This document shows positions 922 through 41,839 of a stretch of DNA of 64,000 nt, one piece after another; the first letter of the stretch is position 1, and the number at the start of each line of letters is the position of its first letter. Below the pieces are notes generated by a model. That model worked only from the letters and a program-made list of their open reading frames with translations, did no database searches and had not been told where the DNA came from. The position numbers were made by a program, and so were the translations under genes. This DNA is from Somniosus microcephalus (Eukaryota). The stretch covers positions 22,692,001 through 22,756,000 of the forward strand of contig CM126228.1 of NCBI GenBank assembly GCA_052327205.1, written 5' to 3'.

Positions 922-1706
922 ATACTTTTTTTTTCTTCTTACTTTCACATTCTTTCTTTCTCTTTTTTTTTCTCCCTTTCTTTTGGAAAAACAGGCAGAC
1001 ATCCCCTTTCAAATAACCACACTGTGGTCAGTTACAATTATTATTGTAACTTTTTGGGGGGAGACTATGCACTATTGTAACTTATTTGGGGGAAAATATG
1101 CACAAGTATTACTTAACTGATCTTATTTCACGGATATTTTCCCTGCCAGTCAAGCAGGAGAGTTTGGTACAAACTGAGCAATCGGGAGAGTATTTTATCT
1201 TGTGGTAAAAAAATGTCCTCAGGATCTGTCTAAAGGGTTGTGCTTACTCATAGTGTAGATCAAGATAGACAGTCCGAAATGGTGCCAACACCCACAGTTT
1301 AATCAGTTTATCTCATATTCCATGGATCGAGACCCTCTACAAACTCATCCCAACCGATGACCCAGTACCGTGCCCTTCAATCTTCCAACTCTGGTCTCCA
1401 TTCATCCCTCTTTCCTTCACTCCACCAAAGACAGGGCCTTCAACCATTCGAGCCATACTCTCTAGTTCTCTTTTGCTATATCCTGCCGCCTTCCTCTCCC
1501 CAATTTCAAAAGTCTGAGTAAACCTTCGGTCACCTCCATTAACTCTTCTGTTACTGCTTGCTGCCTTCTGTGAAGTGCCTTTGGATACTTACTATGTCAA
1601 AGGCACTATATAAATGCGAGCTTCTGCTAACCAATCAGCTCACTCAAAAGCGACATTTGCAGTGACATTCATTTCTGTTATATAAAATAGTATAGATGGG
1701 TTGTAC

Positions 1707-1853
1707 CTTTGATAGGACTTTCTGATTGGCAATTGTAGTGATGAGACCTGCACAACAAACCAGTGCACTGGAGCTAGAGAGTCCTGAGCTGGCTGGGATT
1801 GTGCCATCAACCATACAGTTTATTCCACTGGAAACAGGGGGGTTGAAATGTTC
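1707..1853 (-). CDS. GALK2: GALK2 coding exon 5 (147 bp)
   Basis: ttttcag|GAA...AAG|gtacaa. Translates [49 protein letters not shown], containing the GHMP-kinase ATP-binding motif PxxxGLSSSSA. Phase 0/0. Confidence 0.96.
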
Positions 1854-3378
1854 CTGAAAAAGAGAAAATAATTTTTCATAGAATAAATTTATGTATCTGT
1901 GCAGGTAAATCAGTAATACCTATTTTATATATTGAGTTTAAAATATGTATTTCTTACAAAATATTCAAACACAATCTACAACAACAAAGAGAAAATAAGA
2001 CTTTTATGCACTGCAAAGAGAAAGGAAGACTGAGAAAGGAGGACATGGAAAACAAGCAAAAAATGAGAGACAGAAAGAATAAAATAAATGGGATTTGTAG
2101 ATAGTCGTTACTATAGTGTATGTTGGCCTAGTTCATTCCAAATTTGTTACAGATAATGTTGTCACTTAAAATTCTAGCAAAAAAAGTCTTTAAAATCAAA
2201 AAAAAAAATTAAATAATCTGACCAACAAACTTACAGTGGAATAATACTCCAGTGATATTCCAAAATACAGGCTTTAAGGCACTTTAACTGTTAGACAACA
2301 GTGAGTGTTTCACTTGTTTTCCAAGTGGGTAAGCTCTGAATGCTCGTGGTTAAGTTGAAACATCCAATAAAAGTTTGTTGTAGTTATTTAAATCTACCCC
2401 GTAACACATTATAATTTTATATACTCAAATGTGAAATGGCACGCTGGTGACAGTAGAGGTCGCAAAACAGAGACCAAGAAGTGCAAAACTACATTTTACA
2501 GAAGACAGTGTTTATTTTGAAGGAACAATTCATCAATTCCAAAAATACTTTCTTTGAAACTAAATCAACTAACCACAGAGGACAAAGACAAGTATGGAGC
2601 AGGATATTTTATGAAGTCAACAAGTTATCAAAGATTCTAGGACTGCCATGTGAAGCGAGTAGCGCATTTTCCAGGGTCAGATGGCACTAGTTTAGTTTCT
2701 AACCTGTCTAAAGTTGCAGCATCCTGCAGCATATGGAGTTTCTTGGGGAAACAAAAGGTTCCTCCCTATAAAATCACTGGATGGCTTGGAGGCAAAGAGA
2801 TTTGACTTTTTTTTTTAAACTGTCAAGGAATGTGTATTTCTTTCAATATACTACTCAACCTTCCATAGCGATGGCGGGGGAGAGAGGCAGCAAGGGAGGG
2901 ATAGTTCAAAGGGGATAAGCTATCAAAGAGATAAGTTATTCAATATTTTAACAATATTTTGAAAACAAAATCCTTCTAATCTTAGCCTTTATGCTTGTAG
3001 TACTTTCATAATTTTAAACACTTCTATTATGCTGTATTTATACTGCATCTACAGGTCTCAGACTCTTTTACACTGCCTAGTTGAAACTGCTATACTACTA
3101 CCAAGAAAGGTGTGTGTGTGTGCAAAACTATGCATATGCAGTCTGTCTCCTGAGCACTTTTTAACCTTGAATTGTTATCACACTAAAGTTGTACTCTAAA
3201 GGTGTCAAACTCCAGGAAGTCTCACACCACTTCTCTCTGAAGTCAGGCTCCAACTCCAGATACTGTATATATCATCAATTTAGCATCATTGGAAAGCAGA
3301 AATGGCTTTGCAGTAATGTAGAAGCTACAATATAAATGTACAATTAGATTCCCTTCTTTGATAATGTCTGATTTTGTG

Positions 3379-3560
3379 AATGTAAGAAGTCACACAACAC
3401 CAGGTTATAGTCCAACAGCTTTATTTGAAATCACAAGCTTTCGGAGCGCTGCTCCTTCGTCAGGTGAAGGTCAAATAAAGCTGTTGGACTATAACCTGGT
3501 GTTGTGTGACTTCTTACATTTGTCCACCCCAGTCCAACTCCGGCATCTCCACACCATGAT
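3379..3560. mobile_element. Penelope-like element remnant: perfect 50-bp inverted repeat
   Basis: 3379-3428 is the exact reverse complement of 3471-3520, and the spacer holds a hammerhead core. This is typical inverted pLTR architecture. Confidence 0.75.
3431..3467 (-). ncRNA. Minimal type-I hammerhead ribozyme motif
   Basis: Minus strand: UCAC-CUGACGA-A-GGAGC(AGC)GCUCC-GAAA-GC-UU-GUGA. Stem I UCAC/GUGA, stem II GGAGC/GCUCC, palindromic loopless helix III (AAGCUU). Confidence 0.7.
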
Positions 3561-3639
3561 TTTGTGAATACAGTGCTAGTTTTATTGTTGTTTTTAAGTT
3601 TCCCATCATAACTATGTCCCCTTATCCTTGATATCATCC

Positions 3640-14091: not shown

Positions 14092-14182
14092 CTGAATTCC
14101 TTTAAATCCACAAAGAAAGTAGTAGTGCCATAGAGGTTTAGCTGTGTCAATGTGGACCTTGTTTATATGAACATTATAGTCC
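14092..14182 (-). CDS. GALK2: GALK2 coding exon 4 (91 bp)
   Basis: ctacag|G GAC...ATT CAG|gtaagg. Translates DYNVHINKVHIDTAKPLWHYYFLCGFKGIQ, matching GALK2 '[20 protein letters not shown]'. Phase 2/0. Confidence 0.95.
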
Positions 14183-15499: not shown

Positions 15500-16617
15500 G
15501 GTCCATTCGTTTCTCCCACTGTTAACATCAAACATTCTGTTAGCTGGTGCTCCATCACGGGCAAATCCTTTTCTCAATAAGTGCCATAAACCCGGATATT
15601 AAGCTGGGGTGGGAGTGCGGCCTGCCGGGGCTGGAGCAGGAGAGAAACAACCACGATGGTGCCAGCATGAGGCCCTGGCAATTTTTACTCCTTGCCTCAT
15701 TTAAATGTCCTGCCGCTATTTCCTGCTCGAGGTTGATGTGGAGGCCGGTGGACAAGAGTGGGAAATTGTATGGTTACAAGTTGCTACCGGGTACCTGAGG
15801 AAATGGTCCTCAGCAAGGTAAGTGTGGGGATTCCTGACTACTACCGTCGAGGGAGTGGGGGAACCCAAGGCAAAGGGGTCCCCCCAAGGTTTCCTTGTAG
15901 GACTAGTCTGATCCTCCTGGCCCACAAGGAAACCATTAAAAAAATGAAAAAAAATTAAATTTACCTAGGCCTCTTCTGACCCCGATCCTTCTTGCCGCTA
16001 GCTTTTGCTGGCAGCTCCGGAACTATGCATAATTTGTGCATTTCACAGTTAACATAGCGTTGGGATCCAAATGACATCATCGGACCCTGATATTTAAGTA
16101 TTTACGAGGCCCCCGCCTGTCTGTGGCGAGCTGCCTCGACACTTCTGAAAACATGGAAGATAGGAGCAGGAGTAGGCCATTCGGCCCTTCAAGCCTGCTC
16201 CGCCATTCAACGAGATCATGGCTGATCATCCAAACCCTAGCACCCGGTCCCTACACCGACAGCCATCCCACCCAAGCCCTATCCACGTAACCCCACGTAT
16301 TTAATCCCCCCTAACACTAAGGGCCAATTTTTTTTTTTATCATGGCCAATCAACCTAACCCGCACATCTTTGGACTGTGGGAGGAAACCGGAGCACCCGG
16401 AGGAAACCCACGCAAACACGGGGAGAATGTGCAAACTCCACACAGACAGTCACCCGAGGCCGGATTTGAACCCGGGTCCCTGGCGCTGTGAGGCAACAGT
16501 GCTAACCACTATGCCACCGTGCTGCCCAGGAGTTAAAATGGCGAATGCAGCAAGTAGCACCTGCCCACCATTTTAACCCTACCATTCCGACTGGGTAGGC
16601 AGGGTTAAAATCGGGGC
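15500..16617. mobile_element. Degenerate GC-rich MITE-like element, interrupted by a V-SINE
   Basis: Right end GGTTAAAATCGGGGC resembles other MITE termini. Left boundary approximate. Confidence 0.5.
16148..16527 (-). mobile_element. HE1-like V-SINE
   Basis: tRNA head (GGTGGCATAGTGG...GGTTCAAATCC), V-domain (GTGGGTTTCCTCCGGGTGCTCCGGTTTCCTCCCAC) and CR1-derived tail. Confidence 0.9.
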
Positions 16618-16941
16618 TAACTTAGTCAGAAGCCAAACTTCAAAATATGCATAAAGTGCAGAATATCATTCTCCACTGTGACTGCTTTTTATTCCTGAGC
16701 CACTTTACCTCAAAATTCCAGCAGAAGTGATTGTGTTGCTTCCCTTTGATAAAAATGTTAGATACTTATTCTGAGAAGGACCAATTTTTATCTATTTTTT
16801 AACCTGAATATGATCAAACAGATTCAAATTCAGTACAACAAGCTTTCAATCGGTTCCTAATTTGGCTTTGTTTATTGGACCAGGCAAGATGCAAATAAGC
16901 CCCATAGGTGGTAGGCTTCCCTTCAAGAGTCTCAACTCTCA

Positions 16942-17314
16942 GGCAGCACGGTGGCATAGTGGTTAGCACTGTTGCCTCACAGCGCCAGGGACCCGGGTTC
17001 AAATCCGGCCTCGGGTGACTATCTGTGTGGAGTTTGCACAGTCTCCTCGTGTTTGCGTGGGTTTCCTCCGGGTGCTCCGGTTTCCTCCCACAGTCCAAAG
17101 ATGTGCGGGTTAGGTTGATTGGCCATGATAAAAATTGGCCCTTAGTGTTAGGGGGGGATTAAATACGTGGGGTTACGGGGATAGGGCTTGGGTGGGATGG
17201 CTGTCGGTGTAGGGACCGGGTGCTAGGGTTTGGATGATCAGCCATGATCTCGTTGAATGGCGGAGCAGGCTCGAAGGGCCGAATGGCCTATTCCTGCTCC
17301 TATCTTCTATGTTT
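16942..17314 (+). mobile_element. HE1-like V-SINE
   Basis: Near-identical inverse copy of 16148-16527. Confidence 0.9.
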
Positions 17315-17406
17315 CCTCCCCCAGTCACTAGTTGCAGCCACAGAACTCATCACCGAATTCAGTGCCCAAAGTGGAATTCTCATGTGCCAGTTTTTTTATT
17401 CTTGCT

Positions 17407-17578
17407 ATTGCTGGAAATCTGAAATACTCAGCAAGTCAGGCAATATCTGTGGAGAGAGAAAGAGAGTTAACGTTTCAGGTCTGATGAAAGGTCATCGACC
17501 TGAGACGTTAACTCTGTTTCTCTCTCCACAGTTGCTGCCTGACCTGTTGAGTAATTCCAGCATTTTCTGGTTTTATTA
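17407..17578. mobile_element. Penelope-like inverted pLTR remnant with mutated hammerhead core
   Basis: Imperfect palindrome. CTGATGA-aAGGTC atc GACCT-GAGAC-GTT at 17481-17509 (GAAA changed to GAGA). Confidence 0.75.
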
Positions 17579-19873: not shown

Positions 19874-21250
19874 AGCCTTAGCTCAATGGTGGCACTCTTG
19901 CCTCGAAGTGAGAGTTCAAACCTTGCTCCAGGACCCAAGCACATAATCCAAGCTGATACTTCAGTGCAGCACTGAGGGAATGCTGCATTGTTGGAGGTGC
20001 TGTCTTTCATATGAGACATTAAACCGAGGGCCCATCTACCTGCTCAGGTTGCCGTAAAAGATCCCATGGCACTTTTCGAAGATGCGCAGAGGACTTTTTT
20101 TTTTAATTCGCTTATGGGATCTGGGCATCGCTGGTAAGGCCAGCATTTATTGCCCATCCCTAGTTGCCCTTGAGAAGGTGGTGGTGAGCCGCCTTCTTGA
20201 ACCGCTGCAGTCCGTGCGGTGAAGGTACTCCCACAGTGCTGTTAGGGAGGGAGTTCCAGGATTTTGACCCAGCGACGATGAAGGATCGGCGATATACTTC
20301 TAAGTCAGGATGGTGTGTGACTTGGAGGGGAACTTGGAGGTGGTGGTGTTCCCATGTGCCTGCTGCCCTTGTCCTTCTAGGTGGAAGAGGTCGCAGGTTT
20401 GGGAGGTGCTGCCGAAGAGGCCTTGGTGAGTTGCTGCAGTGCATCTTGTAGATGGTACACACTGCAGCCACGGTACGCCGGTGGTGGAGGGAGTGAATGT
20501 TTAAGGTGGTGGATGGGGTGCTAATCAAACAGGCTGCTTTGTCCTGGATGGTGTCAAGCTTCTTGAGTGTTGTTGCAGCTGCACTCATCCAGGCAAGTGG
20601 AGAGTATTCCATCACACTCCTTACTTGTGCCTTGTAGATGGTGGAAAGGCTTTGGGGAGTCAGGAGGTGAGACACTCGCCGCAGAATACCTAGCCTCTGA
20701 CCTGCTCTTGTTGCCACAGTATTTATGTGACTGGTCCAGTTAAGTTTCTGGTCAATGGTGACCCCCAGGATGTTGATGGTGGGGGGTTCGGCGATGGTAA
20801 TGCCGTTGAATGAAAAGGGGAGGTGGTTAGACTCGCGCTTGTTGGAGATAGTGATTGCCTGGCACTTCTGTGGCACGAATGTTACCCGCCACTTATCAGC
20901 CCAAGCCTGAACGTCGTCCAGGTCTTGTTGCATGCGGGCATGGACTGCTTCATTATCTGAGGAGTTTTGAATGGCGCTGAACACTGTGCAGTCATCAGTG
21001 AACATCCCCATTTCTGACCTTATGTCCGGTATCCTGGCCAACATTTATCCCTCAACGAACATCACTAAAATAATTTATCTGATCATTCCTCTCATTGCTG
21101 TTTGTAGGACAGTGCTGTGTGCAAACTGACTTGTGTTTTTTCTACATTACAACAATGACGACTCTTCAAAAGTATTTAATTGGCTGCAAAATGCTTTGGG
21201 ACAGCCTGAGGTTGTGAAAGGAACTATATAAATGCAGATTCTTTCTTTCT
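19874..21250 (+). mobile_element. DeuSINE split by a LINE insertion (SINE parts ~19874-20094 and 21025-21250)
   Basis: SINE sequence stops at ...gcagaggac and resumes at tccggtatcctggcc. Confidence 0.85.
20095..21024 (-). mobile_element. 5'-truncated CR1-clade LINE with open C-terminal reverse-transcriptase ORF
   Basis: ORF 20160..21044: MFTDD (FADD catalytic motif altered), LGVTIDQKLNW, RSVMEY, ending HHHLLKGN*. 3' UTR and A-tail follow. Confidence 0.92.
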
Positions 21251-22584: not shown

Positions 22585-23445
22585 AGAACAAAAAAAACTG
22601 TACACGCTGGAAATCTGAAACAAAAACACAAACTGCAGTAAACACTCGGGAGGCCCATCGGCATCTGTGGAGAAAAAAGACAAGTTAATGTTTTGGATGT
22701 GATCTTAATCGGTGCTCAAAAAAATGAACAGCTTTTAAATAGAAACCAAACATAGGGAAGGGGCGGAAAAGAAACAAAAAACACACTGAAAGAAGAAGTA
22801 TGGGTAGAATGACCTGTGATGTGCTTAAAAGTGAACCAGAAGATGATTAAATGGCTATTATTAAAAATGAGGCAAAAGGAAAAAGCGTAAGAGATTAGAG
22901 ACAGAATACAGACATAACACTTAGATACCTGAGGCAGTGAGGGTGTAAGTCAGGTCTGAAAACAGGATAAGCAGGAAAAGCAGAGCAGGATCCAGTGCTC
23001 TTAAGAGAAGAAAAGCAGGCCAACACCGAGGGTGCAGATTCCTCCGCCAATACGGTGTTCAGACAGAGGATGCCCACCCCATGTGCCAACTCATCTCCCC
23101 GACCAACACCCATCCCACAACACCTGACCCTGCCATTAATAAAAGTGCAAACTATATTTAAGGTTTTAAGTGATTAAAATTAATGTTATAGTCAGAGGGT
23201 TGAAAAGTGCCCGAGAGAAAGGTCCTACTGCCTCATATTAATATCTGCTCAGCCATTTAATCATCTCCTGTCTTTTACTTTACGCATATAACAGGTCATT
23301 CTTCCCATATGTCCTCAATCATGTGTTTGTTTTTCCTTTTCATCCCCTTCCCTTTCTGAGTGTCTATTTAAAAGCTGTTTATTCTTTCAATTTCAGTGAT
23401 GGGTCACAACTAAAACATTAACTTGTCTCTTCTCTCCATGGATTT
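22585..23445. mobile_element. Old Penelope-like element with inverted terminal duplication
   Basis: ~22660-22875 and ~23225-23440 are degenerate inverted copies. Terminal motif is shared with 28734. Confidence 0.6.
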
Positions 23446-34993: not shown

Positions 34994-35049
34994 CTTCCAC
35001 TCTCTGACACCTGTACCGGCTCCTGCGGCGGGGTTGCACCATCCGCCAT
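34994..35049 (-). CDS. GALK2: GALK2 coding exon 1 (56 bp CDS)
   Basis: agaATGG start. MADGATPPQEPVQVSESG-R ends in AG|gtagca, phase 2, in frame with exon 2. Similar in length and 'VQV' to the human N-terminus MATESPATRRVQVAEHPR (from memory). Lies in the CpG-rich region. Confidence 0.8.
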
Positions 35050-36433: not shown

Positions 36434-37769
36434 TAAAGCACTTGCCCCTGAACTACAAATGCATATATAATTTTAATTAAATCAAGTGCTGTAAAGTATT
36501 GAATTGATCTTTTTAGAACAATTTTAGAAATTATAGTGGTTGGAAGGATTCAGTACATCTGTTTCTATTTGTTTTATGTAAAAATAATATGGGTCTGAAT
36601 ATAGTTGGAACCACAGCTAATACCATTTTCAGTGTTGTCACTAGACTTTAGGGAAATGTACTGAACCAAGTATTGTGTAAATTGTTAATTAACTTGAATT
36701 GCTTCCAATGCTACAGCCACAATGACAGCCATGTAACCATTAATATTTCACCCTCGTGTTATATAGCTCAAAATGCTCTCCAAACACAATCCAAGTTTGG
36801 AAGGACATAATCTGTAATTGGATGATTTTCACAGTTCAAGTAGATATAGAATGAGTACTACTTCATACATCCTCTATTAAGCTCTACTGAATCTTAATGA
36901 CAATATTGGTAAATATTTCTAATTGTGTGACCTGTCTGTTTACTTTCAAACCTAATCTGCCTGTTCTGAATGGTGTGCAGCTGTGATGAATAATTTACTG
37001 AAGCAGTAGTTTACAATACTTTGGAAAATGTATCACCTGGGATCATTTTAAAAGGCAAACATGTCTATATTAACCAGGCAGTTATGTTTTGAGAGTTAAT
37101 CTATTGATTGAATCATAGAATAGTACATTGACGCAATGGGCCGAAGGGCCTCTTTCTGTGCTGTATAACTCTGACTACAGCACAGAAGGAGGCCATTGGG
37201 CCCATCAGGTCTGCCGACTCTTTTGACGAGCAATCCATTTAGTCCCACTCCCCCACTAGTGATCACTGTTTTTAAATGGCCTTTTCTTTTTTTAAGCTGC
37301 ATTGATTTTTCATTTTATGACATAAATTGTGGGGAATCACAGCTGCCATATTTTGAATCGCAATATAAAAGTTTGCCAGTAGTGTGTACTGATGCAGTAA
37401 GCGTTACCACGGTGTACTTTTATGGCTTTGGGACCCCTCCCAAACCTAACAAGTAAGTGATACACAATTCAGATGAATCAAATACTTATTTCAAATTTGG
37501 TAACCATGTATTGACCTAGCTGAAGCACTCCAGATATTGAGTTTGAGTTTGCTACATGTGTCTGTATAACTAATACTCATTTGTCACTGAGGTACTATTA
37601 ATGCTTTGGTTGCATAATGGCCCTTAGTGTCAAAGCCTGTGTGTTTCTTCACTCTAAAGATGGGGCAGGTAATAGAAGGTTCAAATTTTGTGTCTCTTTG
37701 ACCAAGCTTTTGGTCATCTGCCCTAATATCTTTTGTCTTATAACACTCCTGTAAAGTGCCTTGGGGTGT

Positions 37770-40842: not shown

Positions 40843-41839
40843 GGGGGGGAAATTCAGTTGTTTGCACCTCCCGTTAGCGCCTTAAGAGGGCGCTAGTGGG
40901 GCACAAAGCAACTAGCGCCCGGGCGTGGCGATGTTTGCGCCACTCGCGAAATTAACTAGACATTTTGCGACGGCGCTAAACACTACCGCCACGATCTCCT
41001 GCGCCGGCAGATCGTGACGTCAGTCGAGTTCGCAACACCCCGGTAGCGCCCAGGACCGGATATTGAGTGGCGCCCCTTGCCTTGCCGCCTGCCGCTAGCA
41101 ACGACTGGTTGAGGGGAGCGCTTTGCAGTCAGGAAGGGACTGGGGGAGCGCTGTTTAAAGGCGACCGCTTCCTGCCTTTTTTTGTTGGTGACATTTTTGC
41201 ACCATGCATTTTGAGAGAGAGAGACTCTCTTCTGGAGAGATTCAACACTGTGAAGGAGTTTTGCATACTGAGCAGCACTTTGCAGGTTCATTTTGATTTG
41301 CCCTTGTATCTATTTAGAAGAGACTGTGGGGGCTGCATTCTGAGCTCTTTTCCCTGGGTGTCTCCATTGTTCTTTCCAGCAGATTTGATGTACAGGTCTC
41401 TCCAGGCCGAGATTCAAGGCTGCAATGAGCAGGATGTGGATGGAGTGCAAAATCAACCCTCCCCTTTTAAGATAAAAACAAAAAATGCTGGAGAAACTCA
41501 GCAGGTCAAGCAGCATCTGTGAAGAGAGAAACAGAGTTAACGTTTTAGGTCGATGACCTTTCGTCAGAACTCCCCTTTAAGAACTGGCCGGTGCCAGTGA
41601 GTCTGTGTTCCATTGCTGACTGACATCACATGAGCTTCGCCAGCACTCTGAGGTAGCGCCTCACTCCTCGGCCTTTGCGCCTTAAGACAGGTGTGAAGCG
41701 TCTGATTTAGCGCTCCAATCACGTCCAGGGGCGATAAAAGCCAAGTTTGCCATCGGAAGCGATAATTAGCGCCAGGCGCTAAACTTTGCGCACGGCCGCT
41801 AATGGCGCCCCAAACAGGGCGATACCGAATTTTTCCCCC
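40843..41839. mobile_element. GC-rich Harbinger-like MITE with nested Penelope-like fragment (41473-41569)
   Basis: GGGGGAAATTC...GAATTTTTCCCCC TIRs. Insert is flanked by CTCCCCTTT(T)AAGA duplication and carries a mutated hammerhead core on the - strand. Confidence 0.8.

What the first reader, a model, noticed from the sequence alone, without database searches (positions are those of the whole stretch)
3379..3520. Intact minimal hammerhead ribozyme inside a perfect 50-bp hairpin, on the GALK2 pre-mRNA strand
Seen: 3379-3428 and 3471-3520 are exact reverse complements. The 42-nt spacer read on the - strand gives UCAC CUGACGA A GGAGC-AGC-GCUCC GAAA GC UU GUGA. All conserved core bases are present, stems I and II pair, helix III is a loopless palindrome (AAGCUU), and the CUU triplet predicts a cut between 3435 and 3434. 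Established: Penelope-like elements carry such minimal type-I hammerheads in their pLTRs, and these generally need to dimerise to cleave. Inference: GALK2 is transcribed from the - strand, so each pre-mRNA carries this core in intron 4, held in the loop of a 50-bp stem. It is the only intact core among the Penelope-like remnants I found here.
Basis: partly seen in the sequence, partly recalled or inferred. Interest (0 to 1): 0.7.

Follow-up and report, generated by a model that had tools for sequence, protein, structure and literature searches.

The report
Young Penelope-type stub in shark intron
This is a recent, tiny insertion of two head-to-head ends of a Penelope-type jumping gene in a shark gene's intron; its miniature ribozyme motif is intact, but it is one of thousands of identical copies, is missing from close relatives, and likely neither cuts nor regulates the gene.

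Summary
In detail: an exact 50-bp inverted repeat, a complete minimal type-I hammerhead core, a predicted cut at 3435|3434, on the GALK2 pre-mRNA strand in intron 4. The implied specialness does not. The 175-bp unit lies between 13-bp target-site duplications. It is two 5'-truncated, head-to-head pLTR ends of a Neptune-like Penelope element, one with the 37-nt tail; a full-length, frameshifted parent copy was found. The hairpin is a by-product of this known insertion layout. The same 35-nt core occurs 7,759 times in this genome, and 76 loci share this junction type. Such cores do not cleave as monomers (PMC4209133) and may need the element's protein (PMC11167929). No dimer partner lies nearby, and the stem likely blocks strand exchange. 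No excess of copy truncations at the cut site was seen. The scan has reported this kind of stub 58 times in at least 10 genomes. Ordinary transposon debris.

The parts
3369..3381 (+). Left target-site duplication (13 bp; its last 3 nt also match the element's short end)
   Evidence: Identical to 3557-3569; contigs of organisms C, D, E skip 3369-3556 exactly
3382..3469 (-). Arm A: 5'-truncated pLTR copy, sense on the GALK2 pre-mRNA strand, carrying the hammerhead and ending at the family's 'short' 3' end
   Evidence: 3379-3469 is 98.9% identical over 91 nt to both pLTRs of parent copy L061
3431..3467 (-). Minimal type-I hammerhead motif (stem I 4 bp, CUGACGA, extra A, stem II 5 bp, GAAA-GC-UU); predicted scissile bond 3435|3434
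   Evidence: Sequence; fold; its 35-nt core has 7,759 exact genomic copies
3470..3470 (.). Inversion junction: one base matching neither arm's parent alignment
   Evidence: Parent alignments stop at 3469 and resume at 3471
3471..3520 (+). Arm B, paired part: second pLTR copy in opposite orientation, truncated 6 nt 3' of the cut site, so it lacks the core and leaves it in the loop
   Evidence: Exact complement of 3379-3428; 3471-3558 is 96.6% identical to the parent
3521..3557 (+). Arm B tail, 37 nt, ending at the start codon of the parent ORF
   Evidence: Short end to tail end = 37 nt in L061; continuation into the ORF in L049/L061
3557..3569 (+). Right target-site duplication (its first 2 nt also match the element's tail end)
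   Evidence: empty-site contigs
3420..3425 (-). AAUAAA of the pLTR, sense to GALK2 but predicted to be buried in the 50-bp stem
   Evidence: Sequence; fold; function not tested
1704..1853 (-). GALK2 coding exon 5 (approximate ends), downstream bound of intron 4
   Evidence: tblastn with shark and ray GALK2 proteins
14092..14180 (-). GALK2 coding exon 4 (approximate ends), upstream bound of intron 4
   Evidence: tblastn

Best explanation
It is a recent 175-bp insertion of two head-to-head, 5'-truncated pLTR ends of a Neptune-like Penelope retroelement, flanked by a 13-bp target-site duplication, and its intact minimal hammerhead is likely a catalytically silent passenger with no role in GALK2. 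Inferred mechanism: the element's GIY-YIG nuclease nicked both target strands about 13 bp apart. Each 3' end primed reverse transcription of element RNA, one at the tail end and one 37 nt upstream. Both cDNAs stopped after about 90 nt and were joined head to head, which creates the inverted repeat. One cDNA passed the hammerhead and the other stopped just short of it, so the core sits in the loop. In the pre-mRNA, stems I and II are predicted to fold, but a monomer cannot form helix III. The double-hammerhead needs strand exchange of the 50-bp stem with a partner that is not nearby, so cleavage would be negligible. A rare cut would leave both pieces paired and would probably not stop splicing.
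For: Shown: TSD and exact empty site in organisms C (X4, X8; two samples, two studies), D (X9) and E (X13, depth 2); flank divergence 3.2-4.5% there against 0.2-0.3% in A and B. Parent copy L061 = inverted partial pLTR + pLTR-ORF-pLTR, with RT (PF00078, E 1.2e-7), DKG, CX4CxxC linker and GIY-YIG-like motifs with cysteines between them (read); full-coverage homologues carry PF01541. 7,759 exact cores, reversed-pattern control 0. Of 25 distinct insertions in the 30 loci, 15 are inverted, 7 solo and 3 unresolved; 14 of the 15 have one tail end and one short end (p = 5e-4 against a 50% expectation). 76 loci share this junction type; of 25 of them examined, 18 have intact cores and 6 also fold stems I and II. 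The strand-exchanged double hammerhead is -195.1 against -197.6 kcal/mol for two monomers and -204.9 for an inactive dimer. No further family copy in the window or the 40 kb of GALK2 beyond it. Literature: inverted pLTR + one-sided 30-40 bp tail + TSD is the typical layout (PMC3846280, PMC8557442, passages). Single min-HHR showed no cleavage and dimers low cleavage (PMC4209133, parts 1-2 of 4). The Anolis PLE protein nicks and extends both strands, starts RT at two sites that bound the tail, and its HHR cleaves only with protein (PMC11167929, parts 1-2 of 4). Intronic hammerhead cleavage is compatible with splicing (PMC2995048, passages citing Dye et al. and Fong et al., whose papers I did not read).
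Against: Cleavage was not measured. The hairpin raises the predicted probability of stems I and II with an open core to 0.14, from 0.011 and 0.0003 in the parent's pLTR contexts, so this copy is better pre-folded than the parent. The insertion appears to be present in two differently labelled organisms, A and B, though their junction contigs reach only 21-23 nt into it (under the tool's 31-letter rule) and X1 may be the source sample. The in vitro data come from other PLE families (Schistosoma, Drosophila, Anolis Poseidon). Variation among copies concentrates at the free position N7, so the motif was likely functional in the element's own lineage.
Confidence: 0.9

Rival explanations
1. Conditionally active ribozyme: the 50-bp clamp pre-folds the core, so an RNA chaperone or the element's own RT-EN protein triggers slow cleavage of GALK2 pre-mRNA where the element is expressed, with little or no effect on the mRNA.
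For: Stems I and II >=0.95 here against <=0.13 for stem I in the parent context. Protein-assisted cleavage of the Anolis PLE hammerhead (PMC11167929). Family transcripts, some running into the ORF, are present in RNA runs X17 and X18.
Against: No helix III in a monomer, and no partner copy within about 75 kb of the gene examined. The sense portion stops at the short end and has no ORF sequence, where the Anolis protein is thought to bind. No excess of 5' truncations at the cut site: 7 of 92 scorable among the 100 listed of 652 matches, against a mean of 5.75 per position (by eye); 3 of 30 by script.
Confidence: 0.07
2. The biologically relevant feature is the 50-bp dsRNA stem, which is edited by ADAR or cut into small RNAs that help silence the family, independent of the ribozyme.
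For: Perfect 50-bp stem, -101 kcal/mol, on a host transcript. Small RNAs against PLE inverted structures are mentioned for Adineta (PMC3846280, passages).
Against: Thousands of longer inverted copies exist (15 of 25 sampled insertions), so this locus would add little. No locus-specific RNA reads were available to test editing.
Confidence: 0.08
3. Exapted, selected regulatory ribozyme or cryptic polyadenylation switch for GALK2.
For: Sense orientation, intact core and an AAUAAA on the pre-mRNA strand; apparently present in organisms A and B.
Against: Absent from three relatives. Intactness is the family norm. Orientation is a coin toss, and inverted copies carry a sense arm on both strands. AAUAAA is predicted to be paired.
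Confidence: 0.02

Closest known systems
Minimal type-I hammerheads (min-HHR) in pLTRs of metazoan PLEs (Cervera and de la Pena 2014, PMC4209133)
   Same: Full conserved core, extra nucleotide between A9 and G10.1, G10.1-C11.1 pair, short helix I, palindromic 15.2-16.2 region, location in a pLTR, thousands of dispersed truncated copies.
   Different: Stem II is 5 bp (7-8 bp in Schistosoma). Helix I is extended here by an accidental 50-bp stem from the inverted arm. One search of Penelope + shark + hammerhead ribozyme found only a general review, seen as a listing.
EN+ PLE insertions with inverted pLTR, one-sided 30-40 bp tail and TSD (Pen2a_Av, PMC3846280; PMC8557442 fig. 2 legend)
   Same: Head-to-head pLTRs, 37-nt tail on one end only, 13-bp TSD, 5' truncation.
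   Different: Extremely short: no ORF left, both arms about 90 nt, and only one arm keeps the ribozyme.
Neptune/Nematis-type EN+ PLE (PMC8557442)
   Same: Parent ORF has RT then C-terminal GIY-YIG-like EN with CX4CxxC linker and DKG motif; relatives in sharks, turtles, echinoderms and amphioxus.
   Different: No tree was built, so Neptune against Nematis is not settled; the parent copy inspected is frameshifted.
Poseidon element of Anolis, PAc (PMC11167929)
   Same: Two preferred 3' ends bounding a tail; a hammerhead near the pLTR-ORF junction.
   Different: PAc's cut site is 26 nt inside the ORF and its RT starts lie 111-118 nt into the ORF. Here the cut site is about 123 nt upstream of the ATG and the tail ends at the ATG. 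Penelope/Poseidon lacks the linker Zn-finger that this family has.

Membership tests
PLE minimal type-I hammerhead | CUGAnGA ... GAAA ... UH core with stems I and II | tested here: met
PLE minimal type-I hammerhead | Unpaired nucleotide between A9 and G10.1; G10.1-C11.1 pair; palindromic helix III region | tested here: met
   A3456; G3455-C3443; A-GC-U, features as listed in PMC4209133
PLE minimal type-I hammerhead | Located in the pLTR of a PLE | tested here: met
   98.9% identity to both pLTRs of L061
PLE minimal type-I hammerhead | Self-cleavage (as dimer or with protein) | not testable with these tools
   No assay; cDNA RNA-seq showed no end pile-up at 3434/3435 but is not suited to the question
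Canonical hammerhead (Rfam models) | Stable helix III and a match to an Rfam hammerhead model | tested here: not met
   No hammerhead family among 13 matches at E<=5; helix III has one pair and a 2-nt loop
EN+ PLE inverted insertion | Head-to-head pLTRs with a 30-40 bp tail on one end | tested here: met
   37-nt tail on arm B only
EN+ PLE inverted insertion | Target-site duplication with an empty site in relatives | tested here: met
   13 bp; empty in C, D, E
EN+ PLE inverted insertion | Parent with a single ORF, RT plus C-terminal GIY-YIG | tested here: met
   RT by Pfam. GIY-YIG by motif and by PF01541 on full-coverage homologues; a direct Pfam scan of the C-terminal 183 aa gave no hit
Neptune/Nematis clade | CX2-5CxxC linker before the GIY-YIG domain | tested here: met
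   C-X4-C-X2-C upstream of the nuclease motifs in L061 and L066 (definition from PMC8557442)
Neptune/Nematis clade | RT phylogeny groups with Neptune | not tested
   No reference set was on hand
Non-LTR retrozyme | Tandem head-to-tail units, each with a hammerhead | tested here: not met
   Single core, inverted layout, no other copy in the window or 40 kb beside it
Conserved, exapted intronic ribozyme | Retained at the orthologous site across related species | tested here: not met
   Empty site in three relatives at 3-4.5% flank divergence

The most novel reading that the evidence does not exclude
Inversion junctions that leave the core in a hairpin loop turn a poorly folding pLTR hammerhead into a pre-folded one. 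In tissues that express the element's protein, these copies (this one and an estimated one or two dozen like it) become protein-triggered nicking sites in host pre-mRNAs, coupling host transcript processing to transposon activity.
Probability: 0.04. Interest if true: 0.6.

Novelty: new member of a known kind. Interest (0 to 1): 0.12.

Why it matters
As it stands, little: one more stub of an abundant shark Penelope-type family. Its modest use is as a natural test substrate. Whether animal PLE minimal hammerheads cleave in vivo, and what activates them, is open (PMC4209133, PMC11167929), and a copy with stems I and II clamped in place is a clean construct for asking whether protein alone can replace dimerisation. 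The near-strict pattern of one tail end plus one short end in inverted copies (14 of 15) and the correlated arm lengths also bear on how PLEs prime both strands.

Tried and rejected
Rfam scan: no hammerhead model matched; only weak miRNA-hairpin hits below gathering score. Idea that 5' truncations pile up at the cut site as a genomic record of in vivo cleavage: 26 of 76 loop-type junctions begin at the base after the cut (by eye), but these use the GTGA microhomology of helix I. In a search that excludes that class, starts at the cut site were 7 of 92 scorable (8 of the 100 listed were dropped as indels or ambiguous; 652 matches in all) against 5.75 expected per position (by eye; 3 of 30 by script). 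Rejected: no spike. Simple fold-back of one cDNA as the origin of the arms: the short-end arm is the longer one in 7 of 15 inverted copies and in this locus, which a tail-first fold-back cannot give; two RNA-templated cDNAs fit better (inference). My first clade guess, Poseidon, was dropped on the linker motif. Expression: no RNA holder was listed for the stretch. RNA runs X17 and X18 (24% and 31% read) gave no reads on GALK2 exon 5 and next to none on the unique flanks, so reads on the element come from other copies and say nothing on this locus. They show no end pile-up at 3434/3435, and 27 and 71 family reads run through the cut site; fragmented cDNA libraries cannot exclude cleavage. Pfam on the nuclease region alone: no hit. 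The MAFFT step printed nothing and was not used. Fong et al. 2009 was not retrieved; cited second-hand. Supplements of the papers were not read; the min-HHR alignments there might include shark motifs.

Full report
Observation. The arms 3379-3428 and 3471-3520 are exact reverse complements around a 42-nt spacer. The - strand folds into one long hairpin, -101 kcal/mol, z -16.7. The spacer holds every conserved base of a minimal type-I hammerhead, with a predicted cut at 3435|3434. An exon peptide matches N-acetylgalactosamine kinase (PDB 2a2c, E 5.6e-7; shark and ray proteins). tblastn places five coding exons on the - strand, so the motif is sense to GALK2 in intron 4. A relaxed scan finds two other cores in the window, each with one change in GAAA. 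Rfam does not recognise the motif. The host is a cartilaginous fish, probably a shark.

What it is. The unit runs from 3382 to 3556 between 13-bp duplications, 3369-3381 and 3557-3569. A DNA search of the genome gave 972 candidates, 40 of them scored. The 30 fetched (the window's own among them) share the outer ends but differ in their inversion junctions and have their own duplications, so each was built independently at insertion. Locus L061 holds a full-length copy: inverted partial pLTR, pLTR, a frameshifted ORF and a second pLTR. Its ORF has an RT, a DKG motif, a CX4CxxC linker and GIY-YIG-like motifs, and full-coverage homologues carry PF01541. A direct Pfam scan of the nuclease region gave nothing. 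By the definition in PMC8557442 (passages) this is a Neptune/Nematis-type element; no tree was built. The window's arm A matches the parent pLTR at 98.9% over 91 nt, and arm B with its tail at 96.6% over 88 nt. The tail is 37 nt and ends at the ORF's ATG. An inverted 5'-truncated pLTR, a one-sided 30-40 bp tail and a TSD are the described layout of these elements (PMC3846280, PMC8557442; passages).

How common. The 35-nt core occurs 7,759 times exactly (3,930 + 3,829; control 0). With the stems fixed and the core free there are 19,275 matches. 91 of the first 100 listed have an intact core, and most variation is at the free position N7 (by eye). Among the 30 loci fetched there are 25 distinct insertions: 15 inverted, 7 solo and 3 running off the locus. 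76 loci have arm B starting within 12 nt of the core's 5' side, as here. Of the 25 fetched, 18 have an intact core and 6 of these also fold stems I and II. The scan's own index lists 58 earlier findings of this kind in at least 10 genomes; these are unchecked notes, not support.

Age. Single contigs of organism C (X4, X8; two samples, two studies), D (X9) and E (X13, low depth) run from 3368 straight to 3557, which is the empty site with one copy of the duplication. Their flanks differ from the window by 3.2-4.5%. Organisms A and B differ by 0.2-0.3% and have contigs entering the element from both sides, although by only 21-23 nt, and X1 may be the source sample.

How it arose (inferred). The Anolis PLE protein nicks and extends both target strands and starts reverse transcription at two sites that bound the tail (PMC11167929, parts 1-2 of 4). 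In this family 14 of 15 inverted copies have one tail end and one short end (p = 5e-4 against 50%). Arm lengths correlate (Spearman 0.80, n = 15; the sample was chosen for carrying the core, which may inflate this), and either arm can be the longer (7 of 15). This fits coupled priming from both strands followed by head-to-head joining, and does not fit a simple fold-back. The hairpin is the automatic result. The core is in the loop only because arm B stopped 6 nt short of the cut site.

Does it cut? Not tested. In favour: stems I and II form with probability >=0.95, and the open-core fold has probability 0.14 here against 0.011 and 0.0003 in the parent's pLTRs. Against: a single min-HHR showed no cleavage, and dimers only low cleavage (PMC4209133, parts 1-2 of 4). 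The Anolis motif needed protein and left no read ends at its site. The double hammerhead needs helix I in trans, so the 50-bp stem would have to exchange strands; it scores -195.1 against -197.6 kcal/mol for two monomers and -204.9 for an inactive dimer. No second copy lies in the window or the next 40 kb of the gene. I looked for a genomic trace of cleavage as an excess of 5' ends at the cut and found none beyond a microhomology class. Two RNA runs had no usable locus-specific reads, and family reads run through the site. Even real hammerhead cleavage in an intron was reported to allow splicing (second-hand, PMC2995048 passages), and here the two pieces would stay paired (inference).

Verdict. 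A real, correctly described motif in an ordinary young Penelope-type stub. It is a new member of a known kind, interest 0.12. The boldest reading left open is a pre-folded, protein-triggered ribozyme in host pre-mRNA (probability about 0.04).

Noticed in passing
window 17448-17530 and 41472-41571: Remnants of a second Penelope-like family with a different stem II; each core has one change in GAAA, and 17448-17530 is itself an inverted pair. Further fragments near 22607, 28740, 30690 and 59861.
   Followed up: partly
G000, inverted copies L031-L061: 14 of 15 inverted insertions have exactly one tail end and one short end, and arm lengths correlate (rho 0.80), suggesting coupled priming from both target strands.
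   Followed up: partly
G000, 76 loci: 26 of 76 junctions join through the 4-nt complementarity of hammerhead helix I, giving a helix I that runs continuously into the long stem; these are cleaner ribozyme-on-a-stem constructs than the window's copy.
   Followed up: partly
G000: Among copies with identical stems, variation sits mostly at the catalytically free position N7 (C, A, T, one G), while 9 of 100 listed have core changes, 5 of them the same G12-to-A change at a CpG; consistent with selection on the motif in the element's lineage.
   Followed up: no
window 16149-17315: Large 97-98% inverted repeat (about 390-nt arms) of another repeat family in GALK2 intron 3.
   Followed up: no
window about 35550 onward, + strand: Exon-like frames resembling COP9 signalosome subunit 2 (name recalled, not searched), head to head with GALK2 exon 1 at 35049.
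   Followed up: no
window 37134-37207: Short imperfect hairpin with weak miRNA-family scores far below gathering thresholds; its arms resemble a repeat also seen in L066.
   Followed up: no
window 20163-21044, - strand: 294-codon open frame resembling the C-terminal part of a LINE reverse transcriptase (resemblance recalled, not searched).
   Followed up: no
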